64,000 nucleotides of DNA, taken from Bilabrum cf. latius. Its lineage: Eukaryota. Positions within the stretch are counted from its first letter, which is position 1; every line of letters starts with the position of its first letter. The notes under the pieces are model-generated. The model searched no databases, was not told where the DNA came from, and saw only the letters and a list, made by a program, of their open reading frames with translations. The stretch spans positions 1,178,001-1,242,000 of the forward strand of contig OZ237740.1 in assembly GCA_965178125.1 (NCBI GenBank). Direction: 5' to 3'. Positions 1 to 64,000 of this stretch are shown here, piece by piece. A program made the position numbers and the translations under genes.

Positions 1-2481
1 TCTAGGAGTGGTCGCAAGAGGAGAGAGCGCGCCCTCTCGGCGGACATGGGGGCCTACGAGGCGGCGAGGGCGTAGGGGCTGCTGCACGGCGAGGAGCTGC
101 AGGTGGGACCCGCGGGGCTGTACGCCGAGGACGAGGGGGGGGTGGGTGGCGGTCGCGGGGCCAGGCGAGACAGGCGTAGGAGGAGGCACCGCCGGGGTGG
201 CAGCGGGGGGGTTAGCGACAGGGGCAGGGCCAGGGGTATTGGATCTCGTGATGAACACTATGTGCGCTCGCTCGCTGGAGGTAGCCTGGGTTCCATGGAT
301 GGGCTGCAGGGACAGGGGCAGGGGTTGGGGTTGGGACGCATTGGCGGGTTGCATGGCGGTGTAGATCATCGGCACGGCGTGAAATAGGGGGGTTTCGTGG
401 ATAACGACGACGACGAGGAGGAGGAGGACGGTTCAGGGTCGGTCCGATCCCGGCTCTCCTTCCGGGACGATCGCACGAGGGAGGGGGGCTCGAGGCGGGG
501 GCAGCTGATGCTGGACGAGCATGCGGGTGAGGGCAGGGGGCGGTGGGGGGCGCGGAGGACTCGATCCCAGCGCGCGGGGGAGGGCACCGACCGGTGGTCC
601 CCCGTGCAGCACAGAGGAGGTTTCTTCGAGGGGGGTAGGCGAGGCGGCGAGTTGGGAGGGGCTCGGTTGGGGCTGGGGCGAGGGGGTCAGTTCGACGAGT
701 ACGGTGACCTCGATGGCAGCCCAGGCGGCGGGTCGCTTGGACGAGCCGGCGATCGGTACGAGGCCGGGCCAGGCAGTGCCAACGGGCGCCGCCGAGGGAG
801 GGCGATGACTCGCGAGGAGCGGGCTAGGGCCTCGCTGGAGGAGGAAGCAGCCATCCACAGAGCTGCAGCGAGGCACGCGCGGGCTGCTGCCGAGGCCATG
901 GATCGGCGGGCCATGGAACACGCCCGGCTTCTCCTCGCGGGGCAGCTGGGTATGGGCGGCAGCATGGGTATGGGTATGGGCATGGGAGGGTTCGGCGCCG
1001 CAGGCAGCCAGGCCGCTGCTGCCGCAGCCGCGGCCGCTGCAGCCGCTGTGACGGCCCGCGGCGGGGGAGCGGGGTCACAGCACGCGGCAATGGCGGCCGC
1101 GGCGGCGGCAGCTGCGGCTGCAGCCAGTCCACGCCCCGGTGCAGGTATGGGCATGGGCGGGGGCATGGGCGGGGGCCTGCTGGGTGGCCCTGCGGCAGAC
1201 CCACGCATGCTGCGAGGTGATAGGGGCGGGGGTGGGGGCGTGGGCGCGCGGGAGCAAGAGGGCATGACGTCTCTGCGCAAAGGGGGTCGATCGAGGACCA
1301 GGAGTCGCGGGATGGGGCGGTCGGCCAGAGGCAGGAACAAGCGCAGGGGCATGGACAGGGGCATGGACAGGAGCATGGACAGTGGCAGGGGCAGGGGCAG
1401 GGGCAAGGCGGCGGCCACGTCAGGGAGCTCGAGCGAAGGCGGCCAGGGGCAGGGGCTGCGAGCGGGGGACAAGCAGTCCAGGAGGGATCGAGCGAGCCAT
1501 GGCCAGGGCAGGGGCCGGGGCCGGGGCCGGGGTCGCCGTGATTTCGACTCCGAGTCCGACAGCGAGGAGAGCAGCGATGACAGCGAGCTGGAGGAGTACG
1601 CGGAGGAGCTGCTGCAGGACGCGGGCAAGGGTCCTGCGGCGAGGCTGTTGGAGGCACTGTCTGGTGGGGTAAACACTCTCTGGTCCTCGGTGCAGGGGGC
1701 CTGCGCCCGGCCGAAAGGGGGTGCCCTGCCGCGGACGCAGGCCGAGGCAGAGGCGGCAGAGGAAGCGGCTCGCGCGGAGGGTGGCAGCATCGCGGGATAG
1801 GGCCCGTCCGGGGCGGGCGCCCACCGCGTGGTGCAGGGGGTGAGGGAGGCCGTCGGGGCAGACAACACCGTGATGGTGCTGGGGAACAGCGGCAGCGGCA
1901 GGGGGGGGGGGGGTGCTCAGGAATCGGGAACCGGTGGCAAGGGCGGGGACGGGTTCGCACCGCAGAGCCGGGCGGCCAAGGGATAGGAAGGAGAGGAGGA
2001 GGATGGCTTCATAGTGGGGCTTACCCTGCAACAGCGTGTGGCGTGGGTGGGGCAGGGGCTGTCGAGGGTGGGACATGACGCTGCGTGGGCCCTGGGCCAG
2101 GTGGCCGACTATGTCGGGGTGAACGGGGGCCCCGCCGTGGACTCGGCCATCGGCGCGGCGCACGTGGCAGCATCGGCTGCGGCGGACGCGCTGGATGCCG
2201 CCGTGTCGGATCCGACCCATTCCCAGCCCCAGCCACGGGTGCAGACGCAAGTCTCCGGGGGGTTGTCTACGCAAGGCAGCCCAAGCGCTAGCAGCCGGGG
2301 GCCAGCAGCCAAGGGCGCGTCTTCCTCGCCGGGAGGGCGCCGCGCCGTGGGCACCAGCGGGAGTGCGGGTGATTCGGAGCCGGGAGAGGACGTGGAGACA
2401 AGGGCGCCTCGGGCTCCTGCCACGATCGAGGAGGCGGAGACCGCGGCCACCGCGGTGCTGCCAAGCGCGACACGCAACTGA
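1..2481 (+). CDS. 5'-truncated low-complexity Gly/Ala/Arg-rich protein of unknown function (TAG read as Gln)
   Basis: ORF-track pieces 103-387, 397-1800 and 2014-2481 share one frame that is open from base 1. It is interrupted only by TAG (73, 385, 1798, 1984) and ends at TGA 2479-2481. Poly-Ala and MG/RG repeats; no recognisable domain. Confidence 0.6.
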
Positions 2482-2672
2482 ATGCAGCACCGATTGGTCA
2501 GCGTGATCATGCGTCGGATCTGATCCAATCAAGCGTGCCGAACTTTCTTGAAAGACGAAGAAGTTAACGAACTGTTGCACGCCGTGACTGTGTGATGATT
2601 GCTCGAAATCAAGATTGCAGTTGTTGTTGTCAAGTTGCATTCGCTCTCTCGCTGGTGTGTAGATGCCCTGAC

Positions 2673-3980: not shown

Positions 3981-6900
3981 TCACTGGTAGGAGGACAGGT
4001 CCTCCACGCGCAGAGTTGACTTGAGCAGGTCCATGTCCAGCACGGTGCCGTCGTACGGGAGGAACTGCACCGTCGCGCTGGGCGGCTGGAACACGAACGC
4101 GTTGTCCGAGAACCGCCCGTGCGCCGCCGTGGTCATCGTGGCGTACACGGCCACGTGGTCGCCGGTCAGCGTGATGTCCACGCTACCGTCCGCGTTGGCG
4201 GTGCTCGCCACGGCGGCCTTGAGCCCGGACGGCCGCACGGCCAGCTTGCCCGGCGTCTGGTTCAGCAGCACGTTGGAGGACACCACGCTGCTGCCGCCCT
4301 CGCTGGCAGACTGCACCAGCCGGGGCGAGGCGCGGGCCGCCTGCCGCTGCTCCTGGGACTGCGTGACGGTGGCCACAAACACCGTCTCCGTCGCGTTGGC
4401 CTCGCTCACGTTGGCCTGGAAGAACTCCACGCTGCCGGGGCCCGCGGGCAGCTTGAGGTCCGCGTCGTGGAAGGTCCTGGAGCTCCCGTCCACGAGGCTG
4501 ATGCCGCGCACCGTGAGGTGCCCCGCGAAGTCGAACGGGAAGTCATTCCGGGCGTAGCACGTGCCGTCCCCGCCGCACGTGGCCATCACGTCAGCGTAGA
4601 TGGACGAGCGGTACCAGTACTGCAGGGGCTTCCACCGGCCTCCCATGACTTGTCCAGGTACTGGGGACGAGTACTCCACGCTGCCCCAGCCTCCCGTAGG
4701 CCAGATCTCGCCGTACTGCCACGTGATGGTCCCGAACATGTTCTTGGAGCGCTGCTGCTCCACCTCGCCCTTGATGTTGAGCGCCTGCGCGATCATGCTC
4801 TGGAAGCACTGCTGCTTGAAGACCTGCTCCCCAGTGGCGTTGAAGTCCTGCTTGCCGAAGAAGGCCTGGATCAGGCCGTCCATCGGGTAGTTGCGCTGGG
4901 CCATCACGTTGTCGCCCGTGCACTTCTTGGCGAAACCGCCCGAGCACTTGTCGCTGGGGGCTCCGCCGTGGATGCCCCAGTGCTCCTTGGCCAGTGTGGG
5001 GCTCATGCTCTCGAAGCTCTGCAGGGTCACGCACCCGAACTCGCTCGCGAACTGGTTCGTGTACCCCACGCCGTACTCGCCCTGCTCCGTGAACTGCGGA
5101 GGGATAAAGGTCGGCGGGAGGTCGATGTTGTCCGGCCCGTTGACGAACTCGTAGTGGTCGCTGCCCGAGTGCTGGTAGGGCCCGTGCACCTCGAGCTTGG
5201 TGTTGTGCTGCAGCCGGTGGTCGTCGCTCGGGGGAGAGTCGTACGAGGCGGGCACGAGGCCCTTGGGGGAGCCGTTGGGCGCGCCCGTGAGCCGGTTGAC
5301 CCCGTGCGCCCACCCGGCGCTGGGGCACGAGGGCCACACCGCCCTGCTCTGGTCCTCCTCGGCCACAATGGTCAGGGAAAAGGTCGCGTAGATGCCCGTG
5401 CTGGTGCCGATGATCACCGCGCACTCGTTGCATCCGTCGATCAGGATGATGCTCGGGTGGTACCCCAGCCTGCGGATCTGGTGCCTGTACTCGGCAGCCT
5501 GCGTGGCGGTCTTGTCGGGGGAGTGGCCCTGCTGCGCGTACTGAAGGTCGTGATAGACCAGCAGCCCCTGCTCGTCGCACTCGTCATACCACGCCTGGTC
5601 CTGGAAGATGCCGCCGCCCCACACGCGCAGGATGTTGAAGCCACCGTCGCGCGCGGAGACGACCATCTGCCTGAGGGCACTGGAGTTCCTCCGGCCCTCC
5701 AGCTCCTCGATCGGGATCATGTTGGCTCCGCGCGCATACACGGCCGCGCCGTTCACTCGGAAGAACATCCCATTGCCCGAGGACCCGTCGGCGTCCTTGC
5801 TGTTCTTCACGTACTCGGGGTCCGTGTCGTTGCCGGTCACGATCACGGCGTACCGGAACCCGATGAGACGAGAGGCGGAGGGCGCGTCGTCCGGTGCCTG
5901 CAGCGCCGCGCCAGACACGGGCACGGGGGAGGACGCGGCAAAGGAAGCAGACACGCCGTACCGCGGCTGGGCGCCGAGGTTGGCGGGCCACCAGAGGAGG
6001 ATGTCCTGTGCCTCTGCCTGCAGTGTGACCGTCACGTTGCTGTGACCCGCGGGCAGGTCCACGTCCTGCGTGGCGACCTGTCCCGCGCCCCAGCTGCCCT
6101 TGACCGTGACGGTACCCTTGGTGGCCGCGGGCGCCCACAGGTGCACGCGCACCTTCACCTGGAAACCCCCGTGCTTGTGTTCCTCGAGGGGGGCCGTGGG
6201 GTAGTCGCCCTGGTAGAAGACGTGCGGGACCAGGTGCGTGAGGGCGGCGGACGACTCGGCCACGTCCACCGTGTACACGCTCTTCCAAATGCCCCGCGTG
6301 AACCAGTTCGTCGTGCCGGGCTGCGCGGGGATGTTCTGGTTCGCGTACGGGGCCCAGTCCCAGCTGTGCCGTGCAGGGGGGGAGGGGAGGGGGATTTGGG
6401 GGGACAACGCATGAGGGGGCGATGGACTGGCAGAAGAAGCGTCGGCCTGAGATCGTTAGCGCTCTTCGCGGCAGGGTCGACATGCACGTGATACATTTTT
6501 CATCGCAGAGAGAGTATCTCACCCTCCAGAACACGCCATGAACCGACCGTCCGTGAACACAGAGTTGTCGAGCAGCACCGTCACGTTGTTGCCATCGGCG
6601 CGAAGATCGCCTACCTTCGCCACCTGGGCCAGCGAGAACTCTTGCCTGCGCTTAGAGCATGAACATTCTAGGCGCCCCGTGGAAAAACCTTCGAAAGGAC
6701 CGCAGAGAGTGGAGTGCTAGACTGGAAAGATCTCAAGTCTCACCTCAGGAACTGGTCCGTGCTGTTTCCAATTTCCACGCCGTTCACGAAAATCCGTGCC
6801 CCCATCTTAATTCCGTCGAAAACCAGCAGAGTATCCGCCCCGTTGCCTGCCTTGATCGCAGCCACGTGATCCGCGCGCAAGCTGAAGCTTGTCGTGTAGC

Positions 6901-8041: not shown

Positions 8042-9281
8042 ACCTATTCGTGTGAGCGATTTTGTACATTCAAACACTGGTACACTATCACCATCACCCC
8101 TGCCCCTCCACCGGCCCCGACCTGCCCGATCGAGCTACCGCCGCACAGCGCCCAGCCAGCGCAAGATGCAAACATTATGCAAAAAGTCGGTGGTAATAAT
8201 GATGTATAGCAGTTGATTCCATGACCGCAACGCTGCTCCCCGCGCCCATCGGCATGCCACCTGGAGACTTGCCTCCCTCCCAGTCGGTGGCTTGGCCGTG
8301 GGGGGGGGGGGGGGGGGCATCAGCATCGGCTGCATGGCCCGCGTCACAGGCGAGATCGATGCATCCCCCTTGGAGGATGAAAGGAAGGCCAGTGATCGGT
8401 CGGGCGATGTGGGGAGGGGAGAGGGGGAGGATGCCGGCGGGGGGGGGCCTGGAGGGGCATGGACAGGGCGGGCGCAAGGAAGGCCAGTGGTCGGTCGGCA
8501 GGATGCCGGTCAGCGCCCCAAGAGACAGGGGCGATCGGCTGGGGAGCAAGGCTCGGCGGGGCTTCGAGGGCTGCAGATGCATCCGGGAGCAGCAGCAGCA
8601 GCAGCAGCGGTAGGCGAGCGAAGGCCACTCGATGGGCAGCGGGGGCCGCTGCTGCCGGCGTGCTGGGCCCCGAGGACGCTGGCTTGGGCAGACTGGTGCC
8701 CGGACGTGCCGACCTGTGCGTGCCGTCCATCCGTTCGCACGCGCAGGTTCCCTCGCGGCCCATCTCACGAGACCAGGAGGAGGGCGATGAGGACGAGCGG
8801 TTGGAGGCATCGGCAGGGGCAGGGGCAGGGGCAGGGGCAGGGGCCGCGCATAGCAAGTAAGTTCCGCTCTTCTTGGCTTGGCCAGCTGCAAGTCCTGGTC
8901 CGTGCACGTGCTCGGAATTGGAATCGGACTCGCTCCTGTGACGCGGGCCATGCAGCCGATGCTGATGTTCCCCCCACCACGGCCGAGCCCCCGACTGGGA
9001 GGGAGGCAAGTCTCCAGGTGGCATGCCGATGGGCGCGGGGAGCAGCGTTGCGGTCATGGAATCAACTGCTATACATCATTATTACCACCGACTTTTTGCA
9101 TAATGTTTGCATCTTGCGCTGGCTGGGCGCTGTGCGGCGGTAGCTCGATCGGGCAGGTCGGGGCCGGCGGAGGGGCAGGGGTGATGGTGATAGTGTACCA
9201 GTGTTTGAATGTACAAAACCGCTCACACGAATAGGTGACAGCTTGCCGGAGTGGTTAACGGGCTCGCCTGCTAAGTGAGTG
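8000..9281. repeat. Long inverted repeat: arms ~8000-8350 and ~8935-9281, ~585-bp spacer
   Basis: The arms are near-identical reverse complements with a few substitutions, a poly-G length difference and a 3-nt indel near the outer end. The ORF track shows identical peptides on opposite strands (...SWNQLLYIIITTDFLHNVCILRWLGAVRR). Confidence 0.93.
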
Positions 9282-9318
9282 TGCTTTGCACGCGCAGGTT
9301 CGAATCCTGCAGCTGTCG
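9237..9318 (+). tRNA. tRNA-Ser(GCT), 82 nt, long variable arm
   Basis: Acceptor stem GACAGCT/AGCTGTC plus discriminator G; D arm CCG..TGG..CGG; anticodon arm CTCGC-CTGCTAA-GTGAG; variable arm GTGC-TTT-GCAC; T arm GCAGG-TTCGAAT-CCTGC. T-runs follow, consistent with a Pol III terminator. Confidence 0.95.
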
Positions 9319-9607
9319 ATTTTAAATTTCCGCTGCTTTTTGTCTTTCTTCTTTTCTTTTCTTTTTTTTGTTGCTAAACAAGGCTTAATTGGATATATAT
9401 AGGGTGTTAGTGAAAGAATATTAGCTGTTAAATGCGTTAGGCGAACTAATTTTTCCTTTTGGGCGTCTGCGGCAGCCCGGCCGGACGCACACGGCCGCCG
9501 GCGCTTTCCAACGAACTTGTGCTGCTGGACCGCGAACCTTCGCTGTGCTGCCGTCCGTGGTTGCACTTGCGTTCCCTGGACCATAAAGCCTCGCCCAAGA
9601 CTCGGGC

Positions 9608-12600
9608 ATGCCTCGCAAAGGCGGCAAAGGGAAGAGTTAGAAAAAGGCCAAGCATGTGGCGCGCGGCCAGCTGGGCCGAATGCTGATGAAGTCAAAGTCG
9701 AAAGCAGCGAAGGAACGAGCCGCGCAGCGAGCTGCGGGAGAGTTGTGAGAACGCACCAAACAGGAAAATCACAGCCTGCAAGCTGTCCTTTCTGCTCGAA
9801 CAGAACGCCTGGCAATCATTTCCGTCTGAACCCGCAGCATCGACGAGCGAAGCTCGTCGGAACGCCTGGCGTCCGTCACCGCGGTGACCGACTTGGACGA
9901 GTTCATCTCCGCGGCAGAGGTGACGGGGCGGGACTTTAGGGCAGAGTAGCATGAAACAATCATACTGGGCGACGACGGGCTCGTGTACGGAAGCGATGGC
10001 CAGGGCAAGACCCCGCAGCAGGCCGCGGTCGCCAGCTCGGGAGCCGAATCCGACGTTCCGCTACAGATTCCGAGGAAGCCGGACTGGAACGAGTCCATGG
10101 GCGGGAAGCAGGTCGACAAGAACGAGCAGCTGGCGTTCCTTCAGTGGCGCCGCGCCCTCGCCGAGGTGGAGGAGCGCCTTGGGATCGGCGGTGTCCGCGC
10201 CCTGGCCCACCAGATGGAGGTGACCCCGTTCGAGCGCAACCTCCACGTGTGGAGGCAGCTCTGGCGCGTGATCGAGCAGTGTGACGTGCTCGCCCAGATC
10301 GTGGACGCGCGGCACCCCGCCCTGTACCGCAGCAGGGACCTCGAGAAGTACGTGCGGGAGGTCAACCCCAACAAGGCCACGCTCCTCATCCTCAACAAGA
10401 GCGACTTCCTGACGCCGGCGCAGCGGCTCGAGTGGGCGGACCACTACTCGAAGGAGGGCATCGACTTTGTGTTCTTCTCGGCCAAGCACGAGCAGGAGCG
10501 GCTGGACGAGGAGGAGCGCATGCTCCACGGAATGCTGGGAGCGGAGGCGGCCCGCCAGCTGGGGGCCGACGGGCTGGGGCACCTGACCGCCCTCGAGGCA
10601 TTCGTCACGCTCGCGCCCTATCTGCCGGCGGAGGACGACCCCAGGGAGGACAGCCTGCTGGGGGACCAGGCCCCGGGGGACCACCCCGACCGGCTGGGGC
10701 CCGAGATCACGGGCATGGAGATGGAGGGAGATCGGGAGGAAGAGATCAGGGTTTAGCCGCCCTCCCTCCCCTCGGGGGGGGGGGGGGCTGCTACGGCTGC
10801 CGGCGCTGCTACGGCTGCCGGTGCTGCTGCTGAGGTCGGCAGCCGCGCTGCGGGTGCATCCCCTGCCGGTGCGGGTGCTAGCGCGAAGGGGAGCGAGGCG
10901 GTGGCGGAGGTTGGGGGGGTGGACGTCGCCAGGCCTCGCGCGACCGACGGCGCCGGAGGGGGCCACGGGTCGGGCACGAGCGGGGCCGGGGCCGGCACGG
11001 GGGTCGGTGGGGGCAATGACGGCGGCGGCGGCGGTGGAGGAGAGGGAGATGATGGTGATGGTGTGGGCGACGGGGAGAGGAGCGAGGCGGGTGCCAGCGC
11101 GGGGGGGAGCGTCGCCAACTACGACGACCTGGTGCCTGACGCGGGCGAGGGGGGCAGGGATGGCATCGAGTTCCCCTCTGCCGAGAGAGAAGAGGCCGGC
11201 ATCGGCTTCGGGTTCGAGCGGAAGCAGGGCGAGGAGGAGGAGGAGGAGGGCCGGGCGGGGCCGAGCAGCGGCGCGGGCGTGGGTGGAGCAGGTCGGAACA
11301 AGGAGGAGGAGGAGGAGGAACAGCTGGAGGAGGAGGAGGAGGACACGAGTCGGGAGGGCCGCTTCGAGCGGTGGCTGCAGGGCCTGCCTGAGGCGCATCG
11401 CGCCCTGGGCGAGCGGTGCCGACTGTACACGCGCGAGACGCTCATGGACGAGCTGGAGAGGAGGTACGGGCACCTGGTGCTCGAGTTCACCAAGGGCAAG
11501 CTAAGCGGCGCGAGGAGGCGGGCGGACGACGACGACCGCGCCAGGGAGCGGGCGCGCAGGGAGGCCGTGGCCAAGGCCAGCGGGGCCGGGTCCTCGGATG
11601 CCTTCCGCATGGACCTTGCCGTAGTGGACACGACGACCCGGCGGGGGCGCGACTGGGACCAGGGCAAGGAGCAGGAGCAGGAGCAGGTGGGGGGAGGGGA
11701 GCCGGCGGAGGAGGAAGATGGGGACGAGGGCAAGGAGCAGGAGCAAGCCGCGGCTTCCGGGGCGGCCGCGGGGGGTATCTCGACAGTCCCGCAGCCCGCC
11801 GCTGCAGGCCCGGACAAGCGGCGGCGCGTGACCTTTGGCGCCGGCACCAAGGAGCACGAGGGCCAGCGGGAGCCTGCCGGCGAGGCCGGGCACGGGCAGG
11901 AGAAGGAGAAGGACGAGGAGGCCGAGGCCAGGGACCTGGCGGCCGAGGCCCGGCGCGTGACCGCGCTCTCGGACGCAGCCGCCATCTCCGACTCGCTGGA
12001 GATGGCAAGGCAGCGGCCGCTCGTGGTCGGCATGGTGGGCTACCCGAACGTGGGCAAGAGCAGCGTCATCAACGTGCTGCTGGGGGCCTCCACGCGCAAC
12101 CACAACGCCAAGCGGGTGGCCGTGGGCGCGACCCCGGGCAAGACCAAGCACTTTCAAACGCTCCCGCTCAGCGACTCGATCCAGCTGTGCGACTGCCCCG
12201 GGCTGGTCTTCCCCTCGTTCGTCAGCACAAAGGCAGAGATGGTCGTCAACGGCATCCTGCCCATCGACCAGCTGAGGGAGCACGCGCAGCCCATCATGCT
12301 CGTGTGCCAGCGGGTGCCCCGCCTGCTGCTGGAGCGCATCTACGGCATCGCCATTCCCAAGCCCAAGGCGGGCCAGCCGCAGGACCGCCCGCCCACCGTG
12401 CGGGAGCTGCTGGACACTTTCTGCCACGCGAGGGGCTTCATGGCGGCGACCCACGCCGGGTGCGACCACCCCCGCGCCTCCCGCGTGCTGCTCAAGGACA
12501 TGATGAACGGCAAGCTGCTTTACTGCCACCCGCCCCCGTCCTCCATGGATCCGGAGGCCTACAAGGCGGAGACCGTCAGCAGCCGCATGGAGCTGGTCAG

Positions 12601-13270
12601 GCGCGAGGGCGACGGGGACGGGGACGGAGGGCCTGTGGAGCACGAGGGGGGCGAGGGCGAGGAGGAGGCTGCGAGGGCTGCAGGGGAGGGCGCGGATGGC
12701 GGCGGCGTTGCGTCCGCGGAGCTGTACCAGTACGGCCCCAACGTGCTGCGGGCGTCCGAGATCGTGAGGACGGACCCGGTCACTGGGGCCGGTGGCGGTG
12801 GCGAGGCCCAGGCTCGGGGGGGCCAGCAGGACGGCCCGGGCCCGGGCGGGCGAGACGGTCAGGGACCGCAGTCATAGGCGGTGCGAGCGGCTCTGCGGGG
12901 CGTCCCTGGCACCGGCGCGGAAGGGGCCGTGGACGTGGACGGCGTCATGGAGGGTCTGGGGATGGGGGCCGGGGCCGGCCTGGACATTGGGATCGACCTG
13001 GACGACCCCTTGCTGCTCGAGACCCTGGGCGAGAGCGGGGCGCTCGGGGGGCCGGGGACGGCGGCCGCCGACCCTTCGTCCGGCGCGGGCGGGCCGGAAC
13101 CGGCGGCCTCGGCCGGGCAGAATGGTGCCGGCGGCGGCAGCGGCGGCGGCAAGACCCTCACCAAGAAGCAGATGAGGAGGCAGATGCAGGCGGAGAGGAA
13201 GCGATCCAGGGCAAAGAAGGGCAAGCGCGACCCGGACCCGTACGGTACGCAGATCGCTGACTGGGAGTGA
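9608..13270 (+). CDS. LSG1: Large subunit GTPase 1 (circularly permuted GTPase), intron 9745-9837, ~1,189 aa with large acidic/Gly insertions
   Basis: Motifs LASVTAVTDLDEFISAAE, FLQWRRAL, TPFERNLHVWRQLWRVIE, QIVDARHP, NKSD, GMVGYPNVGKSSVIN, TPGKTKHFQT and LCDCPGLVFPSF. One frame broken only by TAG (including 9947, 10754, 12875); stop TGA. Confidence 0.93.
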
Positions 13271-34760: not shown

Positions 34761-34947
34761 GAATCATGCCTCTTGTAGGCGATTCTAGATGTAATTTATT
34801 TTCTTCATTTTCATTTTCGGATATGGTTACAACCGGTGGCCCAACGCCTCCGGACCAGACCGAAAACGGGTATCTTCATAACAAAATCAAGAGCCAGCCA
34901 GTGATTCTCACTGGCTTCTTGGTTTGGCAAAACTCTGGTGGTATACC

Positions 34948-53600: not shown

Positions 53601-56600
53601 GCACTAGCTTGCTTAGGATCCGAAGTACGCCGGGCCCTGTCGGACAACAGTACGAGCGCAGATGTCGACCTGAACCTGGGCAGATACTACTGCCCGTCTG
53701 CATCGGGTCTAATATCCATGAATAGGTACGGCATCGCACACCGTGTGTTTTCCTGTGCTAGGTTTGTGGTCCAACAGATGCACGACGAAGATGCTGCAGG
53801 AAGTGGTCCTTTGCACTGGCTGCAAGACTCCAAGCTTGAGGTTGCTGCCCGAGCTGCATTGGGAAGCAAGGCTGATGCGGACGTTGAACAGGTTGTGGAT
53901 TCTTCTCGAGCGTCTATTAAGCGCAGCGCCTTCATGGCCACAGCATCAGCCGCTGTACTGATGTCGAACACCGCAGGAAATCTAGACGTTCCCGGAATGA
54001 AGTTTCCAACTCTTGGCTCGTCGCAAGGACTTGTTGACAGCGATGTGGACCAGCTGCGAGACCACATGGCAAGCTCAAGGGAGCCGTTCTCTTTTTCGTC
54101 GAGTAGAACACACGTAGAGCGTGTTAAGGATCTTTCTCATAGTGTTGATCAGCCCTTTTAGCAGGTCGGAATGTCAGATGATTCGATGGGACAAGCCGCC
54201 GGTGCCAGCGATATGTCTGGATCGCAACAGCATGCTGATGATCTGGTATATTTGACCAGGTTCATCGCAGCTCGGGTTTGGGTGCTGCATGTAAATCCCA
54301 CACTAGCTGCAATTTTGGATGAGCAAGCCGCGAAAGAGAGTTTCTCAGCGGGACCGGACGTGACTGCCCTGGCAACGACCAGGGCTGCGAGGCAGGAGTC
54401 TCTGCTGGGACGGTAGGCTGCCATGTCCGCGTATAGGGAGTATCCAAAGGTCAAATCGGGGCAGTTGCCATTTGAAGGACTATCTGAAGCAATGGTGGGA
54501 ATTTGCTCTGAGCCGCAGCCTGTATCTCACTAGTCCCTGTACTCCATGCCTGGCCGATCGGTCGTGCAGGAGTGTATTGGCGAAATTGAAGTAGTGTCAG
54601 CTCAGCGCTCAAGTGCGACCGGCCTGGCACTAGGATGGAGCGGAAGGGTGCTTGAACAGATTGTCCCTGACTCGATGGAGCTTCGACATGCTCACGCGGC
54701 GGTACAGCAGCAGTTTCTTCTTGACTTCTTGCCTGTTGGGCTCCACTCTTGCTTCTCGACTCTGCCACAACACGTCTCCTCGGTGATTGTCAAGCTTTTG
54801 TCCGATGTTCAAATGTCATACGAGCCGAGTGATGAAGACAAAGCGAAATCTGGGTACGGAATCTAGCAACAGTACGCAAGGCAGCAAGGTTTTGGGTTTC
54901 TTCCATCCGATGAAGGGTCCACCTCCTAGAGTCAAGCAAGCTTACTGCCATCGAAACCATCCGTTTCAGATGCTATCCGAGTGGCAAGGCAGAGTATTCG
55001 AGGTGACTATGACGCTGTTCGGGGCATAGGACGGACACCTGGGTCATATGCTACAGATAGATCGATTTTGGAGGGTGTTGAGCACGTTCACACCGACTCA
55101 ATGGGGCTCATTGATTCTGGAGTGCAATGGAGACGGGATGCTTCTGCAGGCGATTAGAGAATTCCTGAGGATGCTGCAAGCGACAGCAGTGTCCTCGGAA
55201 AGGTTGCCAAATCGATGGACAAGCAGGTAGATCGCACTGAACGGTATGAAAATGGGGAGCTGTAGGATGATGCGTTGCCTGTGAGCGACCCATACCACTC
55301 TCATGTCCCGAGTCGAATTGGAAGCTTTGGGCATCTTCCGGGGAGTGCTTTCGATGCAGCAGCTACCCACAGTACGCTGCCCATTTTGTGCAAGCGATTG
55401 GATGCTTTCGTTCAGCCAGATCCTTGGGATGTCACCGTGTCGGAAATGCTTCCAATGAAGCCTACCAAGAAGGGGTCTGCTGCAACTTTGATGGTCAGGC
55501 AGCACGGGAGCAGGCTGCCTCCTACGAGCTGGGGGGCGCAATGTGCGAGGTCAAGACTGCCGAATTCCCTTCTTTGGGCAACGGGTGGGCTCGTCTCTCG
55601 CACCACGAACTCGAGCTTGCACTACCGAGACATGAATGCCAGCGATGAGTTGAATCACATCGCTACAGACAGTCAGTTGCTCGACCAATCGACGTTTTTT
55701 ATGAATAGGGAGCGTTCAGGGGTATTTAAAAACCAGTCGATGCTGCTCGGACTCGATTACTTTGCAGTTAAGCGTGATCCGCAGCACGCTGTACGAATTG
55801 AAAGACACTAGGGTCAAGCGACAGTGGAGGACTTCGTTCGAGATGCCAGCTCATCTGAGACTTTGACACATCGCGACTTGATTAGGTGCAAACAGATGTA
55901 TTGGCAAAGTGGAACTCCACAGGCCCGGTCGGAGGTGCTCGTGCACGAACTGCAGGCCTACCCCTTCGAGCAATCTACGCCGGAGCACTTCTAGAATTTG
56001 CTAGGATCCGGTGGCGTTACTCACAGGCTCGGCGGCATGCCACAGCAGCTACGTGCACTTGCCAGATGTAACGGGACCCAATCGAGGTCCAGGGTGTCAG
56101 TCGTGAATGGCCTTAGGCCAGAGTGGGTACCGCTCGGCATGAAGGGCTCGGCTTGGAATCGCCAAGGTGCTGCAAGTCGGCTGAAGAACGACGAGTGCGG
56201 CGCCGCTCTTGAGCTTGCGCTGACCTGGTCAGGCGGTTGGGCACCAGTGAGCAAGCTAGCAGATGCTGAAATAGCCGCACAGGATGCAGTGCGGCGTTCG
56301 CAAGGCCAATTCAGGGCCCCGATTCTGCCGGGCTATGGATGTGCTCTGTATGGCAGAGGTGTAAAGCGTCAGATGGTGACTCCCACGAAGCAGCTCACAG
56401 CATAGTTGGACCTCGCCGCGGTGCTTGCAGCACACCGTAGGGGTCGTGCAGTGATGGCTGCTGCTGCCATCTGGCGGCACTGCGCCCCGTATGCCGCTCT
56501 GCAGGTGGCTGAGGTACCTGTGCCTGGATCGGCAAGATCGGTGCTGCCTGGGACCGTCGATGCAAGGCCTGCTTTCTTACCGACCCTGTGTAGTGGAGAC

Positions 56601-59600
56601 GTACTGAGAGGTCCGCTGTAGCAGCTGTTGCTCGCACACCCAAGAGTTCTGCGGTTTGTGTTTCCGAGTGGCCATCCAGCCAGGCCAGCGAACGCTGGAG
56701 TTGACCGGTATGCTATATTTAGGGGTATCAGCAAGTGCATGTTTGATGCGTGTAATTAGCTTGCACTGCTGTTAGACTCGCCCGGTGGGCCTAGAGATAG
56801 CTGCAGGTCTAGAGAGGATGAAATCCGCGCCCTCGACATGCAAGCAAGTAACTTTGGTCGTATGCTGCTTGCCGTCCTTGATACTGTCCCAGACTCATCC
56901 AGGGCCGACATCCTGGGACTTCGGCATGCCAACGCCGGTGATGGCCCCCATGGTGTGCTACCAGAGGTACTATGTGCAACCCTTGCAGCTCTACAGCGCG
57001 CTGCGCCACTCGCCGAGTCGGTTCCACTTCGCAGCTCCCCCGTGTATAACGCCTCGGTCGGCGCCAATCGACCAGTCCTACCTCTTGAGCCGCAGACTGG
57101 CGCAATGTTGAGCAGCATGGATTGCGCCGAGGCTGTTTGTGATCTGCTAGTTTACTGCTTGGCGGAGGGTGTATTGCGCGCTGAGGCCGGAGAGCTAGGC
57201 TTTGAGACTGCCAACACATCCACTGTGGCAGGTTTGCTTGCTGTAGCTGAGGCCGCGGACTCCCGAATGGATAGTGTATCATTGGTCCCGTTCGATCGTG
57301 GAATCAAGTTGTTGCGTTCCGTGACCGCCTTGCTGCGGCTTGCAAAGCCAAATTCGAAGGCTGTATCAGCGGTGATGCGCCTGCTCAAGGAGCTCGTGAA
57401 GGACCAGCGGCTGGCACGACACTTTGCCATGCATGGTGGCCTAGAGTCATTGCTTGCAATGCAGTCGTTCAATTGGAACGACTGCCTGGTTGGAGATGCT
57501 TCGACAATCTTCCAAAGGATTTGTACGGAGCCTGCGGAGTCTTGCAGGAGCTTCCGTACCGCAATCATAGCTTGCATCAAGGAGAAACAGGCATCAATGC
57601 ACGCCAAAATTGACGAAGCTGCTGTTCAATTCAGAAAGATGGTTTCGACTACTACCTTGGAAACAGGAACAGTGGTAGACTCCGCGATACGCCACGTATA
57701 CAACGCTGGGGCTGCAAGCCAAGGTGATCCAGTCAGCAATGCTGCGCCTTCGCTGAATGATTCAGCATAGGCTGCCATGAGTGATGGCGAATCAGGCACC
57801 GCTGCAGACGAGCGTAGCGCTGCCAGTTCCAGCGATACACTCGAGCGCAAAGAAGAGGATACATCTGAAAGCAAGACTGAAGACGCATCTGAGAGCAAGG
57901 AGGAGGATGCATCTGAGGGCAAGGAAGAAGAACCTTCTGGCAGGCAGGGGCGAGTTATGGCCACTTCTACAAGTGGCACCAGACCCGCACCAGCAACCCT
58001 TGCAAAATCATCAGACCATGTATCACGTGGGTCCAAGCGCGTACGAATAGCATCGGAACGCTCTCCGAGCTCTCTTCGCGTTTCTCTCGGTGAGCTGGTT
58101 GGAGACTTGAAAGGCTACGTGCAGCGTGACCCTGCCGTGTTTATTATGGCGTTGCTATCGGTTGCAGATGTTTAGGATGCCCATCGAGACGGTCTGTTCG
58201 ACCTCATTGCTTTGTATAAAGCATTGCGTGGTGCGGTGCATGTAGCTGCGCCAGAAGGCGAGGAGCTGTCCTACAATCCGACCGACATCCCTCCCATTTC
58301 GGTAGGTTTATTGTCTGAGGGTGATGCGCTCAAGGCCTAGCGTGTGGTTGCTACTGCAGTTGCAGAGATCACGGTGCGTCGTTCTAACATGAGCCGCGCC
58401 AGTAGTGCCGCTGGCACATCGATTGAGCGTTCCAGGAAAACCAAGGCGCTTTCACTACCACCTGTCGTGGCTGGATACCTTGCTCGAATTCCACAGGTGC
58501 AGGTGGCGGCATCTGCACTGGCATGGATGCTATGCAATGAGACATGTTCCCTACTTGGCTTCTCTTCGCGAAAGAATCGCACTGCATCCGAACTGGTGCA
58601 AGATCGGGCCTCTGCAGGGTGGAGTGGACTGCAGCGCGACAAGCACATGATGGCTGAAGCCCGAAGTGTTCCACTAGCACTCTGTGCCCACAGGATCTTG
58701 CATATTGTGACTCAGCTTTCACCGTCATTTCGGATGGCGGTGGCGACTGTACCTGCGGAGACACACCCGCTCATGCTGCACACCAAGTCAGCGCTAGAGG
58801 TGTGCATCGGGCGCACGCCCGGGTAGAAGCCGCAAGCGATCAATAATGATGCAAGCGTCCAACCAAAATCTCGCACCAACAAGGCGGCCAGCGAACACGC
58901 CAGCAGTCTAGCAGCCGTTCCATTAACACGGACCTCGAGCTAGGTTTCTCGCTCCAGCGGTCGCTCTCGGAAGAGGAAGCGTGCATCACTGTCGAGCAAG
59001 CCTGGCTCGTCAAACGTGCCAGCTACTCGATTGCAATCGAATGGCACTGCGACACCGAGCTTAAGTCGACATTTCGGACGGTCTTCAGACGGGTAGATTC
59101 TGATGGCAACCTCTGCAGTTGCTGGAGTGCTCGGCAAGCAGAGGCCGGAAGATGCTTTCCTGCTTCCAAGCCCGTTCATGCAGACGCTGTTGCTGCGAAT
59201 TATGCCAGCCATGAACTCAATGGATAACCCTGCGGTCGCTATTGGCCCGAGCCGGGGCGTTTTGCCTCTGGCGAGGCTGATCGCGGAAGCGCCCGGAGGC
59301 ATGTCCAGAACACCGCAGACTGGAACAACGGCTGGTCACGATCCAGTTTCTACGATGACGGATGGGTTTGCTGGGTTTGCGTACACGCGTTTTGACTGTA
59401 ATGTTCTATCGTTGCAAGACGCACACACAAGGCTAATTGCAAGTAGGACGGCTTTGAATGACCAGTCAAAGCAGATGCCACCTGGCAGCATGCGCGCCAT
59501 GCCATCAAGCGCTGATTTTGAGTCTCACAGCCGATATTCAACTCGAATTATAAGCTTAGGGGGGGGAAGACCATTTAGTAGCTTTGGCGTCGACCTTGCA

Positions 59601-62600
59601 GACATCCCAGGTCAGAATCGCGTTCATAATCACATCGTGCTGCCTGCCACAGCAGCTCGAGCGCTGTCCCGGCGATCTGTTCTACTGCTAGCCGCTTTTG
59701 CAGCTGACAGCGTGGAGGGCAAAGCATCGGTGGCTCAGCGAATCGTGTAGACGGTGCGAATGGTGGCTAGCAACAGATCGCTTCGTTCCATGCGACACAA
59801 GGTAGCCGGCTCTGGCAATGGCAAGAGTCAGTGGACGTTGTTTGCAACTTTGGAAGAGAAAGCAACGTGTTTGATGATGTGTTGCGTAGCAATTTCTACT
59901 CTCATTGCTGGTGGTGGCCATCCGGAGCTTGCTGCAGAGCTGCATGGGCGCGGTTTGGTCGAGTTGTTACCCAGAGCTCTTTCATCAGCTCTTGGTGGAA
60001 CGAGCACCGGAAGCGGGTCGCGGGACTCACACCTGCTGCGACAGCATGGAGTACCCGTCGGAAGACCATCACTCTGCCTATCCTAGGCTGTTTCGCTTCG
60101 TCATAGCGTTCTTCAAGCAGTCGGCGAACTCTGCCGCCCGGAGTACATTGGTATCTCTACGGACCGTCTGGCTCAAAGGCTCAGGGAGTTGCACGACAGT
60201 ACCACCAAGGCCCTTGGCCAGGCACGGTCTAGTGCGAGGCATCGTGGCAACACGGCTCGTACCAGTTCGCAAGTTCCTGTTCCAGCTCGAATTAGGCAGC
60301 CTTCGAGCCCTGGCAGTATGTTTGGTCGGGCTCGGTCAGCTTCAATGGAACTTGCAATGAAGGGTACGATGACTCCCAGGCGATTCGGTGCCGGTTCTCA
60401 GCCACGGTCGTCAACACATGCCGTGGAATCAGTGAGTCTCGCGCATCTACAGGGCGCCAGAACCGCCGGAACGAGACAGGAAGAGTTGGAACCTGCTGTT
60501 CAAAGTTCCTCTGTGCGTGCCCCAGTACCAGCTCCTGGTGCGGATTCTAGTCGGACCGCCGTTACTGGCTCTCCGACGACCAATGCCTCTGAATAGGACC
60601 AAAGCTCGCGAATGAATGCCAGGATCACGGTTAATATTGAGGGGCTCCCTGACGGGCGGCAACCCAGCAGTGATGCTGTGTCTGCAATCCTTGAGCAAGT
60701 GATTCGGGATGTTGCTCAGCAGATGCCAGCTGGCGCTACCATCCAAATCGTTGGTAGACTAGGCGGATCCGGGGCGGCTGGGCCAGCATCATCATCCAGC
60801 GGACCGTCCGCATCAGAGGGCGCAATGCAGTCTGACGATGCTGCATCTGAAGAATCATTTGCTCTGGGACTGAACGCGGACGATGAGGATGATGAAGATG
60901 ACGATGAATCAATGATTCCAGAGGATGACGGAATTATGGCAACAGGGTACGACAGTGATGCTAGCCATCCTATTCCGATACTGAACAGCGGCGGGCGCGA
61001 CAGGTTAGTGGGCAGCGACCTTGCCATGCCAATCAACCCATTTGCGTCTGATACTGGTCGCTCCCGGCAGAACTCAGACGATTCGGGTGGGACTGAAGCC
61101 AGTGGCACGGGGGGTTTGCAGAGCGGCGCGTCTGGTGTGCAAGACCTGGATCAGTATTCTGATGCCATTCGCGAAATGGCCGAGACTGGTGAAATCGACG
61201 GGGCTGACCTAGATATCATGCAAGACCTTGAAGCAGAAGCCGATGGCTGGCAAGATATGGATGGATTTGGTGATGGACACGATTTCGATGACGGAGAAGG
61301 TTTTGAGTACGAAGATGAACCCGATGATGACGGGTTTGGCGAGCTTGGTCGCATGGTAAGGCCCATGTCACCTAGTGAGGAGCAAGGAGATGCCTCTGAA
61401 GGCGTCATGTTCGATCCATCGAGGGGATTGATAAGCATCTACGATAGCGACGGTTGGGGTAGGCGGCATGGCCTGTCTAGTTCCTCTCTGCAAGCACTCG
61501 ATCCAGTTGATGAAGCCGATGAGGACTTGGACGAATCGAATCGTACGTCAAACGACCGTGACTCTGAGGGTGCAGGCGATGCAATGAGCAGCGAGCAGCC
61601 TTCTATGCGACAAGATGCCGATGAATAGAACCGCAATGCTGCCGAGTCAACAGCTGCTGAGGAAGCAGCTCAGGGTTCCTCTGTTGAAAGCCAAGACAGC
61701 ACCGACGAAGAATCCGGCAGAGGGTCGCCTGACACGGCACACGCAGACTGGATTGCTTTGCCTGCCTCGTTCATTTCCGCGTTGAGGGATAGCATATCTG
61801 GAGACGGAGTGGCAGAAGTTGAGTCGAGGGCGCTCAACTTTTCTGAAACATCCGAGGGTATGCAGCAGCAAGATTTGGAAGAGATTGTGCAGCAGCTGGA
61901 GCAGCTTGAGAGTGACGCACCAACCTCAGCAACTTCTCGGTCAGTCTAGCCAGGTTCTAGGCAACTGCCTGGGAGATAGAACCTGTCCCATCGTTTACGG
62001 TTGCACTCGAGCACCAGCGGCTTGCATCGATTGGAGTTCATAGGAGGATTTCCGTTCGCGGAGTCCTTGAGTGCCTTGCTGGATGAACGGAGACGATCGA
62101 ATAGGCCAGATGGTGGGAGGGAGCGGAGATCCTCAGGTGCGGCAGAGCGCGCCAACGAATTGCTAGAACATTTTGACTACATGCAGAGGCTGGCATCCAC
62201 TGGCGCAGAGGACGCTCCCAATGGTCTTGGACGAGGCAGGCCTCCACGGCGACAAAATGCGGTTAGGTCTTTCGTGCCCTCAGCGAGTCAACAAAGCTCG
62301 TCGATGCCGGGCACCTCCAGCGTACCGGTCCGCCGAGCTGCATCGCGTCGCCGGCCCAAGCAGATGCTTTTGCGGTTTGGTCATCACTCTTCCAGGCTTC
62401 CTGGTACCCGGTCAGGCAGTCGCGCCGACCAGGGCTCACAGCTTAGTGATATAGTCCCGCATGGTACGCTGCCGTGGAAGACTAGTACCAATACGAGATT
62501 TTCGCGTTCAGACCCCAGCCTGTACTCACCGCTTGCTCTCGGGACCTAGTTTCGTTTGGCGGAGGCGTATGCAGCTGCAGGCAGGCGGCTCCCGCGTGGT

Positions 62601-64000
62601 GATCAGGCAGCTGCTGCGGTACCTCCAGCATCCCAGTTGATCGATCACATCATGACAGTGTTGCAATCGATCCTGGTCGACGGCATTTAGGATGGCTCCT
62701 CGGTTGCAGGACAAGCAGCTGCTATGCTTCGGCAAGTGTCAGCGTCTTCGACTTCGCTTTCGACCGGCACTTTGTCGCTTCTACTGCTGGCTTTGCTTGG
62801 CGACAAAGGCGGCCTCACGCTCTCTGCTGCAAAGAAAGCCGTGCTCGAATTCGGCGGCACAAAGTTGAGTGACTCACCGCTCGCAGTTGCGGAAGCCATT
62901 CTTTTCGGATCTAAGCATAACGGCAATACTAGCTCCTGTGACGATTCCTTGGATGCAATTCTGGAAACAGATACCATGGATCAAACGATGATTTTGTATC
63001 CTGGTCCTATGTTCGACCGATCGGCACTGCCGGCATCCATTCTTACAGCCCAATTCAAATATGCAGGTGCAGTAGAGAAGATTGAATCTGGTGGCCTGGG
63101 CTTTGAGCGTGCACGTGTCTGGCCACCACTAGCGCTCACAAATGGTACTGCAGGTATAACCGGGGGTGTTCCATTGGTACAGATACATGGATCCACTGCA
63201 GTGGCATTGCAGAGTTGCGAGCGTGCAGCTCAGCGACTGGCACCGGCCTTGCCTGTTGCCAACACCGGCAGCAAGTCTCCGGCAAAACTGTCAAATAGCG
63301 CATAGTGGAGCTCCCGGTGGCTAGTTGATGCCATGGCGGGCAGTTTGCAAAGCGTGTCTTCTGCTGTTGCTCTCGGTGTCTTCTACCGGAGAATTACGGT
63401 ACAATCAAACGATCGCGTTGCGTTACTAGGATCGCCAGACTCCTCGTGGGATGGCAAGCAGCCGATGCTCTTTGATGGTTGTTTCGCTCAAACTGCATTC
63501 TGTCGACAGGCATCTGTGTTGCCGGAATCCTTGCAGGACGCTGCTTTGCGTGATATGTCCGGCCTCATGATGGCGCGACGCTGGTACTGTCGCCACTAGC
63601 CGGATGATGATGGGCGCAGAACCAGATTCAGGGGTGGAGACGAAGCAGAGCTGTTTGTTTGTAGGCATGACAGGTTCTAGCCAGCGCGATTGGGCCTTGC
63701 ATTGACTAATCCTACCGCTGGAGACAGTGCGCCAAAGTTTGATGCAGATGAACCTGCTGAGCGCGCAGGAATACTGGATGCGCCGCTCGAGTACGGCACG
63801 TCCATTCTGCGATGTGTGGAGGCAGACCTTGAATGCAAGCTTCTTAGTACGAGTGTACAGGATCGCTTGAAACTCGCGAGGCAGCCCCTAACTGCACTCA
63901 GTGATACCTCTCCTGGGTCTAACAACTTTCTCGCGAACCTTCAGAATCGGGCAAAGATTCGTGTGCGCAGGTCTCGTCTCTCTCGATTCTTAGGCAGAGA
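44625..64000 (+). CDS. Giant HUWE1/Tom1/UPL1-like E3 ubiquitin ligase (N-terminal armadillo-type DUF908/DUF913 region; HECT domain expected beyond the window), exons ~44625-44726, 44821-45036, 45162->64000
   Basis: MDLMSWQPIFDRIDAIM resembles HUWE1 ELYHWVDLLDRFDGIL. NYSSME|VLALLLGARD resembles LYSSIEHLTTLLASSD. DUF913-like AVHEDPGRASVLH*SG...QLPPGPDV near 49800; acidic disordered tract at 60850-61700. One frame from 45162 to the end containing only TAG stops. The start codon is unresolved. Confidence 0.78.
57859..57930 (+). repeat. Three-copy 24-bp in-frame repeat (D-[TA]-S-E-[SG]-K-[TE]-E) in the HUWE1-like gene
   Basis: gatacatctgaaagcaagactgaa / gacgcatctgagagcaaggaggag / gatgcatctgagggcaaggaagaa. 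Confidence 0.65.

What the first reader, a model, noticed from the sequence alone, without database searches (positions are those of the whole stretch)
1..64000. Non-standard nuclear genetic code: UAG reassigned to a sense codon (most likely Gln)
Seen: adjacent ORF fragments of LSG1, HDAC11, MLH3, ABCG, Rab28, PPWD1, the HUWE1-like gene and two large unknown genes stay in one frame. Once introns are removed they are separated only by TAG, with homology continuing on both sides. Known: nuclear UAG-only reassignments are rare; reported cases include the fornicate Iotanema (Gln), a rhizarian (Leu) and some phyllopharyngean ciliates. Inference: this GC-rich, intron-containing genome does not look like those, so it may be an independent and possibly undescribed origin of a table-15-type code.
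Basis: partly seen in the sequence, partly recalled or inferred. Interest (0 to 1): 0.96.

Follow-up and report, generated by a model that had tools for sequence, protein, structure and literature searches.

The report
Nuclear code reads UAG as glutamine
In this GC-rich eukaryote the usual stop signal UAG is used inside ordinary genes as a codon for glutamine, while UAA and UGA still end genes; this change of the genetic code is known from only a handful of lineages.

Summary
Read with TAG as sense, the window opens frames of 6382, 2406, 1815 and 1500 codons. The longest frame is 917 codons under the standard code and 1166 with TGA as sense. Ten frames (17,669 codons) hold 91 in-frame TAG, 0 TAA and 0 TGA. 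Ten TAGs lie inside alignment blocks to solved LSG1, HDAC, MutL/MLH, ABCG, Rab28 and PPWD1 homologues.

The residue is glutamine. Close relatives' proteins put Q at 5 of 7 of our TAG sites, and one relative's DNA reads CAG at an eighth. A metagenome relative, L001, carries 73 in-frame TAG and no TAA or TGA in 6544 codons. Across 93 aligned TAG sites, Gln beats every other residue by at least 28 nats. One Rab28 TAG aligns with Q of human Rab28.

TAA is not sense: 0 seen against about 22 expected. TAA ends Rab28 and the HDAC11-like frame, and TGA ends eight frames.

Contigs from two other runs lack a GT..AG intron yet keep all five PPWD1 TAGs.

No tRNA-Gln(CUA) or eRF1 could be examined, and the lineage could not be placed. 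The window is far more GC-rich than Amoeboaphelidium. I file it as a new member of a known kind.

The parts
44853..63998 (+). Giant frame open to the window end: 6382 codons with 54 TAG, 0 TAA and 0 TGA. Downstream of the intron (from 45162) it has 6279 codons with 53 TAG, 152 CAG and 86 CAA. 'HUWE1-like' rests only on a weak DUF913 match.
   Evidence: relatives
45035..45159 (+). 125-nt GT..AG intron near the 5' end of the giant gene. It is skipped in one low-depth contig of run X5, with only 20 letters on the shorter side.
   Evidence: table 5
41604..44216 (+). PPWD1 (WD40 plus cyclophilin), exon 2 to a TGA stop. In-frame TAG at 41694, 41772, 42576, 43338 and 43350.
41506..41602 (+). 97-nt GT..AG intron of PPWD1. 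It is absent from contigs of runs X5 and X6 and present in X1 (record 1 spans it).
35830..41277 (+). 1815-codon frame with no known family, 4 TAG and a TGA stop. At the TAG at 40402 a ~91%-identical relative (X7) reads CAG.
34017..34760 (+). Rab28 GTPase. The TAG at 34206-34208 aligns with Q of human Rab28. The gene ends ...CVVS followed by TAA.
25315..32535 (-). 2406-codon frame with no known family, 8 TAG and a TGA stop.
19709..24211 (-). Full-size (PDR-type) ABCG transporter with 5 TAG. Those at codons 117 and 1035 lie inside the two nucleotide-binding domains. The middle of the frame looks like an intron read in frame.
15914..19177 (-). MLH3/MutL-type mismatch repair gene with 5 TAG, three of them inside the ATPase block.
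13485..15875 (-). Histone deacetylase gene (HDAC11-like) with 3 TAG and a TAA stop.
9830..13270 (+). LSG1 large-subunit GTPase with long low-complexity inserts, 3 TAG and a TGA stop.
3981..6455 (-). Beta-mannosidase-like (GH2) main exon with no TAG. An upstream exon with Glyco_hydro_2_N2 lies in 6740-7783.
1..2481 (+). Gly/Arg/Ala-rich frame with 4 TAG and no family. Whether it is coding was not shown.
9236..9319 (+). tRNA-Ser(GCT), the only tRNA in the window. There is no tRNA with anticodon CUA here.

Best explanation
The window comes from the nuclear genome of a GC-rich, intron-poor eukaryote whose code reads UAG as glutamine, while UAA and UGA remain the only terminators (the pattern of NCBI table 15). 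UAG is an ordinary Gln codon beside CAG and CAA. It makes up about 18% of Gln codons in the 55%-GC giant gene and about 8% in the more GC-rich genes (arithmetic). The trait is shared by a ~91%-identical relative and by a far more distant relative, so it belongs to a clade rather than to one strain.

Shown: the in-frame use of TAG, its equivalence to Gln, and the exclusion of TAA and TGA from coding frames.

Inferred from other UAG->Gln lineages, not seen here: a tRNA-Gln with anticodon CUA, which cannot read UAA, and an eRF1 that no longer recognises UAG. An example is the GTS-motif change reported for Iotanema (PMC9161772).
For: (1) Frame lengths and controls. In-frame counts are 91 TAG, 0 TAA and 0 TGA in 17,669 codons.

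(2) Homology runs through TAG in one frame. Ten TAGs lie inside alignment blocks to solved homologues: ABCG 117 and 1035; MutL 57, 109 and 178; PPWD1 587 and 591, with 333 between blocks; Rab28; HDAC 717; LSG1 40.

(3) Purifying selection continues past a TAG. Of the 40 window-versus-X7 differences that were printed (of 1650), 34 are at third codon positions, including 17 of 20 downstream of the TAG at 40402.

(4) Gln from close relatives. Protein fragments of relatives (92-98% identical) cover 7 of our TAG sites and read Q at 5, E at 1 and Y at 1. X7 DNA reads C for the T of the TAG at 40402, giving CAG. Five fragments stop exactly at our TAG sites. Three stop where we have CAG, CAG and AAG.

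(5) Gln from a distant relative. L001 has a 6544-codon frame with 73 TAG, 0 TAA and 0 TGA, 40% identical to ours over 5357 columns. Of 93 TAG-versus-residue pairs, Q is the commonest (21). In well-aligned contexts it is 14 of 28. The log-likelihood for Gln exceeds the next residue by 28-45 nats at every filter.

(6) The Rab28 TAG aligns to Q in human Rab28, 'ykQtigldf'.

(7) TAA is not sense. There are 0 in frame where about 22 would be expected if TAA:TAG followed CAA:CAG (134:542), and 0 against about 65 expected in L001. TAA follows the Rab28 C-terminal CVVS. TGA follows the PPWD1 C-terminus, which aligns to residue 644 of 646 of human PPWD1.

(8) The TAGs are not assembly errors. 18 in-frame TAGs lie in listed X5 contig pieces and 10 in listed X6 pieces, all with no differing letter. 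The X5 and X6 contigs that carry the five PPWD1 TAGs lack the 97-nt GT..AG intron.
Against: Against distant homologues the TAG sites are mostly variable positions and do not by themselves point to Gln. ABCG aligns with K and S. MutL aligns with I at the 'ATSK-I' motif and with S. LSG1 aligns with R or K. HDAC aligns with A and A. Ypt7 aligns with A. Only Rab28 gives Q.

The close-relative sample is biased. Long fragments are found precisely where a relative has replaced TAG, and only 9 fragments were recovered in two searches whose candidate lists were capped.

The kind of runs X5 and X6 is not on record; the tool guessed 'RNA?' and, for X5, 'probably DNA'. Retention of TAG in spliced mRNA is therefore probable, not proven.

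No tRNA(CUA), eRF1 or peptide evidence could be examined, because no genome is held. With only 10 terminators seen, occasional use of TAG as a stop is not excluded.
Confidence: 0.9

Rival explanations
1. The code is ambiguous: UAG is mostly Gln but also serves as a terminator in some contexts, as UAA does in Blastocrithidia or all the stops do in Condylostoma.
For: It cannot be excluded from 10 terminators. For Scotinosphaera, PMC8271138 conjectures such dual use.
Against: 0 of 10 frame ends is TAG: 8 are TGA and 2 are TAA. TAG is frequent inside genes, up to 53 in one gene, which would be costly if it often terminated.
Confidence: 0.05
2. Both UAA and UAG encode Gln (table 6 type, as cited for Amoeboaphelidium, several ulvophytes, oxymonads and diplomonads), and TAA is simply rare because the genome is GC-rich.
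For: UAR->Gln is the commonest nuclar variant (PMC5304391 and PMC11687900, passages read). The sole non-TGA terminators are two TAA.
Against: CAA is used 134 times in frame, yet TAA is never in frame; about 22 would be expected. In L001 there are 105 CAA and 73 TAG but 0 TAA, against about 65 expected. TAA sits right after the Rab28 CaaX-like end and at the end of the HDAC homology.
Confidence: 0.02
3. UAG encodes another residue: Leu as in the rhizarian exLh, Ser as in Scotinosphaera, or Glu, Tyr or Lys.
For: MutL has I/L-type residues at the site of MLH3 TAG57. L is the second commonest partner of our TAGs in L001 (6 of 46). Single relatives show E, Y and K at TAG sites.
Against: The likelihood over 93 sites puts Ser, Asn, Thr, Lys and His 28-52 nats below Gln, and Leu lower still. 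5 of 7 protein sites, 1 of 1 DNA site and 2 of 3 fragment ends among close relatives are Q/CAG.
Confidence: 0.02
4. The TAGs are artefacts: assembly or sequencing errors, pseudogenes, sites corrected by RNA editing, or tiny introns.
For: None beyond the general prior. X5 and X6 are not certified RNA.
Against: The same TAGs, with no differing letter, occur in contigs of two other runs from other studies. Two further lineages keep TAG-rich open frames under third-position-biased divergence. All gene families are affected while TAA and TGA are never in frame.
Confidence: 0.01

Closest known systems
Iotanema spirale (fornicate) nuclear code: UAG->Gln, with UAA and UGA as stops (PMC5304391 and PMC9161772, passages read)
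   Same: Same codon, same residue, and UAA kept as a stop.
   Different: Iotanema is a gut-dwelling anaerobe known from a transcriptome, and its free-living relatives use the standard code (PMC9161772). Here the genome is GC-rich, with the stretch lying on a contig of at least 38.9 kb. The code is shared with a relative only 40% identical in the giant protein. The lineage is not placed, so kinship to Iotanema is not formally excluded. The eRF1 GTS motif could not be checked.
Phyllopharyngean ciliates and Protocruzia tuzeti: UAG->Gln only (PMC11687900, passages read); NCBI table 15 (the table number is recalled)
   Same: Same reassignment. UAA is not reassigned, and a tRNA(CUA) cannot read UAA.
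   Different: The phyllopharyngean data set there spans GC up to 53.6%. The window is 54-70% GC and holds many genes in a row with spliceosomal introns. It does not look like a ciliate, though that is not a test.
UAR->Gln codes (table 6 type): Amoeboaphelidium protococcarum, Dasycladales, Cladophorales, Trentepohliales, oxymonads, diplomonads and many ciliates
   Same: A stop codon is reassigned to Gln, and TGA is the main terminator.
   Different: Here TAA is never in frame and is used as a terminator. Amoeboaphelidium genomes are 40.5% and 39.9% GC (PMC10608142 Table 1).
Rhizarian exLh (UAG->Leu) and Scotinosphaera (UAG->Ser)
   Same: UAG alone is reassigned, and UAA is kept as a stop.
   Different: The residue here is Gln.
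TAG->Gln recoded phages (code 15; PMC9523058, abstract seen in the listing)
   Same: Same codon-to-residue change.
   Different: Those are bacteriophages. Here the genes are eukaryotic nuclear genes with GT..AG introns.

Membership tests
UAG-only -> Gln nuclear code (table 15 pattern) | TAG occurs in frame inside conserved protein-coding genes, with homology on both sides. | tested here: met
   Ten TAGs lie inside alignment blocks to solved homologues. There are 91 in-frame TAG in ten frames.
UAG-only -> Gln nuclear code (table 15 pattern) | TAG sites correspond to Gln in relatives. | tested here: met
   Close relatives read Q at 5 of 7 protein sites and CAG at 1 DNA site. Across 93 L001 pairs, Gln is best by at least 28 nats. 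The Rab28 TAG aligns with Q. Distant homologues at 6 other sites are uninformative.
UAG-only -> Gln nuclear code (table 15 pattern) | TAA and TGA are not in frame and act as terminators. | tested here: met
   0 TAA and 0 TGA in 17,669 codons, and 0 in 6544 codons of L001. The terminators are 8 TGA and 2 TAA, and two of them sit at conserved C-termini.
UAG-only -> Gln nuclear code (table 15 pattern) | UAG is retained in mature mRNA, with no editing or micro-intron. | tested here: inconclusive
   Contigs of X5 and X6 that lack the 97-nt GT..AG intron keep all five PPWD1 TAGs. Neither run is on record as RNA.
UAG-only -> Gln nuclear code (table 15 pattern) | A tRNA-Gln with anticodon CUA. | not testable with these tools
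   The only tRNA in the window is Ser(GCT), and no whole genome is held.
UAG-only -> Gln nuclear code (table 15 pattern) | eRF1 is altered so that UAG is no longer recognised. | not testable with these tools
   eRF1 is not in the window and no genome is held.
UAR -> Gln code (table 6 pattern) | TAA as well as TAG is in frame at Gln positions. | tested here: not met
   0 TAA against about 22 expected in the window and about 65 expected in L001.
UAG -> Leu or UAG -> Ser codes | TAG sites correspond to Leu or Ser in relatives. | tested here: not met
   Ser is 36-45 nats below Gln, and Leu is not among the best eight residues.
Context-dependent stop/sense codes | The reassigned codon also terminates genes. 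| tested here: inconclusive
   0 of 10 terminators is TAG. The sample is too small to rule out rare use.
Amoeboaphelidium (aphelid) genome | Genome GC of about 40%. | tested here: not met
   The window GC is 0.54-0.70 in every 4-kb bin, against 40.5% and 39.9% (PMC10608142 Table 1).

The most novel reading that the evidence does not exclude
The window belongs to an undescribed or not yet recognised eukaryotic clade that independently reassigned UAG alone to glutamine in a GC-rich genome. The clade has at least three sampled lineages: the window's organism, a ~91%-identical relative, and a relative only 40% identical in the giant protein. If so, it would be the first such case outside fornicates and ciliates. 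It would also be one with long genomic contigs and probable RNA data at hand, making the split between UAG and UAA decoding directly testable.
Probability: 0.45. Interest if true: 0.78.

Novelty: new member of a known kind. Interest (0 to 1): 0.72.

Why it matters
Nuclear codes in which UAG and UAA have different meanings are rare. The papers read list Iotanema, one rhizarian, Scotinosphaera, Protocruzia, a few phyllopharyngean ciliates and one oligohymenophorean. A further, clade-wide case in a GC-rich genome bears on two open questions. The first is how the ribosome and eRF1 tell UAG from UAA. The second is whether high GC, which makes TAA and TAG rare, eases capture of a stop codon.

There is also a practical consequence. 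Standard-code gene calling breaks this organism's genes into pieces. The public protein collection holds its relatives only as fragments that end at TAG. Its proteome and any phylogenomic placement will therefore be wrong unless the code is set.

Tried and rejected
Whole genome, 18S and tRNA set: not held.

Earlier notes of this scan: nothing by place, by words or by sequence.

Sequencing runs: no RNA holder listed. Parts of the giant gene that X5 and X6 contigs do not cover are left uninterpreted, and contig depths were not used.

Placing the organism:
- The word-indexed protein search with PPWD1 returned only two bacterial WD40 proteins.
- The exhaustive search gave 150 PPWD1-like proteins at about 40% identity.
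- A FastTree of 121 of these (those of 540-900 aa; the other 29 were left out for length) puts the query with unnamed P0013 and P0014 (support 98).
- Names looked up for 30 of the 150 gave only Sphaerothecum (P0019), a legume CYP71 (P0021), a mite, an unnamed MMETSP transcript and Fluviicola cyclophilins. None of these is near the query.
- Two Atlas look-ups (beta-mannosidase and an ABCG piece) gave families but no usable taxon.
- A scan of prokaryote genome contigs found no relative.

Other checks:
- Rfam found only the tRNA.
- No HECT or other solved homologue was found in the last 1544 residues of L001, so 'HUWE1' is unconfirmed.
- A Codetta-like reading from distant solved homologues did not discriminate: at 7 sites they give Q, K, S, I, S, R/K and A.
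- Pyrrolysine and selenocysteine were considered and dropped. The codon is in nearly all genes, the relatives have Gln, and TGA is never in frame.

Literature: nine searches found no report of UAG->Gln in a GC-rich non-ciliate. Subscription journals are not covered. Supplements were not asked for, and the taxon tables of PMC5304391 and PMC11687900 may list further cases.
Full report
WHAT IS THERE. The window is 54-70% GC. It carries a row of ordinary eukaryotic genes on both strands:
- a GH2 beta-mannosidase-like gene;
- LSG1;
- an HDAC11-like deacetylase;
- an MLH3/MutL-type gene;
- a full-size ABCG transporter;
- a 2406-codon gene and an 1815-codon gene with no known family;
- Rab28;
- PPWD1;
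- a giant gene that runs off the window.
These identities come from Pfam and from solved structures. The name 'HUWE1-like' for the giant gene rests on a DUF913 match at E 4.1e-4, below Pfam's cut-off, and I could not confirm it. The only RNA gene found is tRNA-Ser(GCT).

THE OBSERVATION. Under the standard stops no frame exceeds 917 codons. Reading TAG as sense opens frames of 6382, 2406, 1815 and 1500 codons. The same trick with TAA gives at most 917 codons. With TGA, the commonest stop triplet in this GC-rich DNA, it gives at most 1166. Over ten frames (17,669 codons) there are 91 TAG, 0 TAA and 0 TGA in frame. The two other frames of the same DNA carry 73 TAA and 627 TGA. At the off-frame stop density of the giant gene, a 6279-codon gap free of TAA and TGA has a chance of about e^-126 (my arithmetic).

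Homology runs through the TAGs. Ten of them lie inside alignment blocks to solved homologues: both ABC domains, the MutL ATPase, the LSG1 N-terminal block, the HDAC fold, Rab28 switch I and the PPWD1 propeller region. Some of the 91 TAGs sit in introns or leaders read in frame, so 91 is an upper bound. The beta-mannosidase-like frame has none.

NOT AN ARTEFACT. Contigs of four public runs were laid on 40000-59999.
- X1 holds the stretch without a difference and may be the source.
- X5 and X6 come from other studies and other organism labels. Their listed pieces cover 18 and 10 of the 50 in-frame TAGs with no differing letter.
- The X5 and X6 contigs that carry all five PPWD1 TAGs skip exactly 41506-41602, a 97-nt GT..AG intron. 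X1 contains this intron. This is what spliced mRNA looks like.
- The two runs are not on record as RNA, and the tool's own guess for X5 leans to DNA. I therefore rate 'UAG is kept in mature mRNA' as probable, not proven.
- X7 holds a relative with about 8.5% different letters. Only 40 of the 1650 differences were printed. Of these, 34 are at third codon positions of the 35830 frame, including 17 of 20 downstream of the TAG at 40402. The frame therefore stays under protein-level selection beyond the TAG.

WHICH RESIDUE. Three independent lines point to glutamine.

(a) Close relatives. Two capped protein searches recovered nine fragments (92-98% identical) from assemblies of relatives. They cover seven of our TAG sites and read Q, Q, Q, Q, Q, E and Y. 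X7 DNA turns the TAG at 40402 into CAG. Five fragments end exactly at our TAG sites, so the stop-type codon is kept there. Three end where we have CAG, CAG and AAG. This sample is biased towards replaced sites, because long fragments arise there. The direction of replacement is still telling. At about 94% protein identity, a radical change at most TAG sites would be absurd, whereas TAG<->CAG as a silent change is expected.

(b) A distant relative. A metagenome contig, L001 (19.6 kb, GC 0.54), is one open frame of 6544 codons with 73 TAG and no TAA or TGA. It is 40% identical to our giant protein over 5357 columns. I took substitution profiles from that same alignment and scored the 93 TAG-versus-residue pairs. 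Gln fits them best by 36 nats with no filter and by 28 nats in the best-aligned contexts, where 14 of 28 partners are Q.

(c) Rab28. The TAG in switch I of Rab28 aligns with the Q of human Rab28.

Against this, distant solved homologues at six other sites show K, S, I, S, R/K and A. These are variable positions and neither support nor contradict Gln. The I of MutL after the ATSK motif is the one odd case.

UAG ONLY. CAA is used 134 times in frame and CAG 542 times. If TAA were Gln too, about 22 in-frame TAA would be expected in the window and about 65 in L001. None is seen. TAA follows the CaaX-like CVVS end of Rab28 and ends the HDAC frame. TGA ends eight frames, including PPWD1, whose end aligns with residue 644 of 646 of human PPWD1. 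No frame ends in TAG, but ten ends are too few to exclude rare dual use.

MECHANISM. Two things are shown: UAG is decoded as an amino acid that behaves as Gln in evolution, and UAA and UGA terminate. Two things are inferred from the described UAG->Gln lineages: a tRNA-Gln(CUA), which by wobble rules cannot read UAA (argument in PMC11687900), and an eRF1 that has lost UAG recognition, as in the Iotanema GTS->GGS change (PMC9161772). Neither gene is in the window and no genome is held. UAG's share of Gln codons is higher in the 55%-GC giant gene (53 of 291) than in the GC-richer genes (about 37 of 470). This fits an ordinary synonymous codon that follows local composition.

WHOSE GENOME. I could not place the organism.
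- Amoeboaphelidium, the algal parasite cited for stop->Gln, has 40% GC genomes and is cited as UAR->Gln. It does not fit.
- Ciliates, the rhizarian (Leu) and Scotinosphaera (Ser) do not fit by residue or by genome style.
- Iotanema is not formally excluded.
- In a PPWD1 tree the query joins two unnamed environmental proteins, and the 30 names I could look up were not near it.
- Relatives occur in runs labelled 'protist metagenome' and in a metagenome contig. I draw no habitat from that.

VERDICT. It is a known kind of code (UAG->Gln, with UAA and UGA as stops) in what is probably a lineage not yet on the published list. Nine literature searches found no such report. That library omits subscription journals, supplements were not seen, and the lineage is unplaced. 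I therefore file it as a new member of a known kind, with about 0.45 probability that it is an independent, undescribed origin.

Noticed in passing
window 8007-9271: An inverted repeat with 302-nt arms (8007-8308 and 8970-9271, 98% complementary, 661 nt apart), plus shorter inverted pairs to 7541-7637. The right arm overlaps the first 36 nt of the tRNA-Ser gene (9236-9319). It looks like a foldback or TIR-type element, or a partial inverted duplication, in the intergenic region.
   Followed up: partly
window 44853-63998 and L001 1-19632: The giant gene has at least 6279 codons in the window after one 125-nt intron and is still open. Its relative is at least 6544 codons, open at both ends. No HECT or other solved domain was found in what is held, and only a sub-threshold DUF913 match was seen. 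The protein's identity is open.
   Followed up: partly
window 1-44000 versus 44001-64000: GC drops from 0.62-0.70 to 0.54-0.59 at the start of the giant gene. That gene uses TAG for about 18% of its Gln codons, against about 8% in the other genes.
   Followed up: partly
window ~35030-44290: One 9162-nt contig of run X5 spans the 3' part of the 1815-codon gene and all of PPWD1, with only the 97-nt intron removed. The two genes are about 230-330 nt apart, so their transcripts may overlap or be read through.
   Followed up: no
window 25315-32535 (-) and 35830-41277 (+): Two large genes (2406 and 1815 codons) have no Pfam family. The 1815-codon protein has a long Gly-rich repeat region near residues 330-520.
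   Followed up: no
window 19709-24211 (-), about codons 330-470: The ABCG frame stays open through a stretch with no transporter homology (Cys/Ala/Pro-rich). It is probably an intron that happens to lack TAA and TGA in frame. Gene models here need RNA data.
   Followed up: no
window 42051-44007: One X5 contig joins 42051 to 44007, skipping 1955 nt. The ends are TC..TC and the shorter side has 34 letters. It is not an intron-like joint and may be a chimeric contig or a repeat.
   Followed up: no
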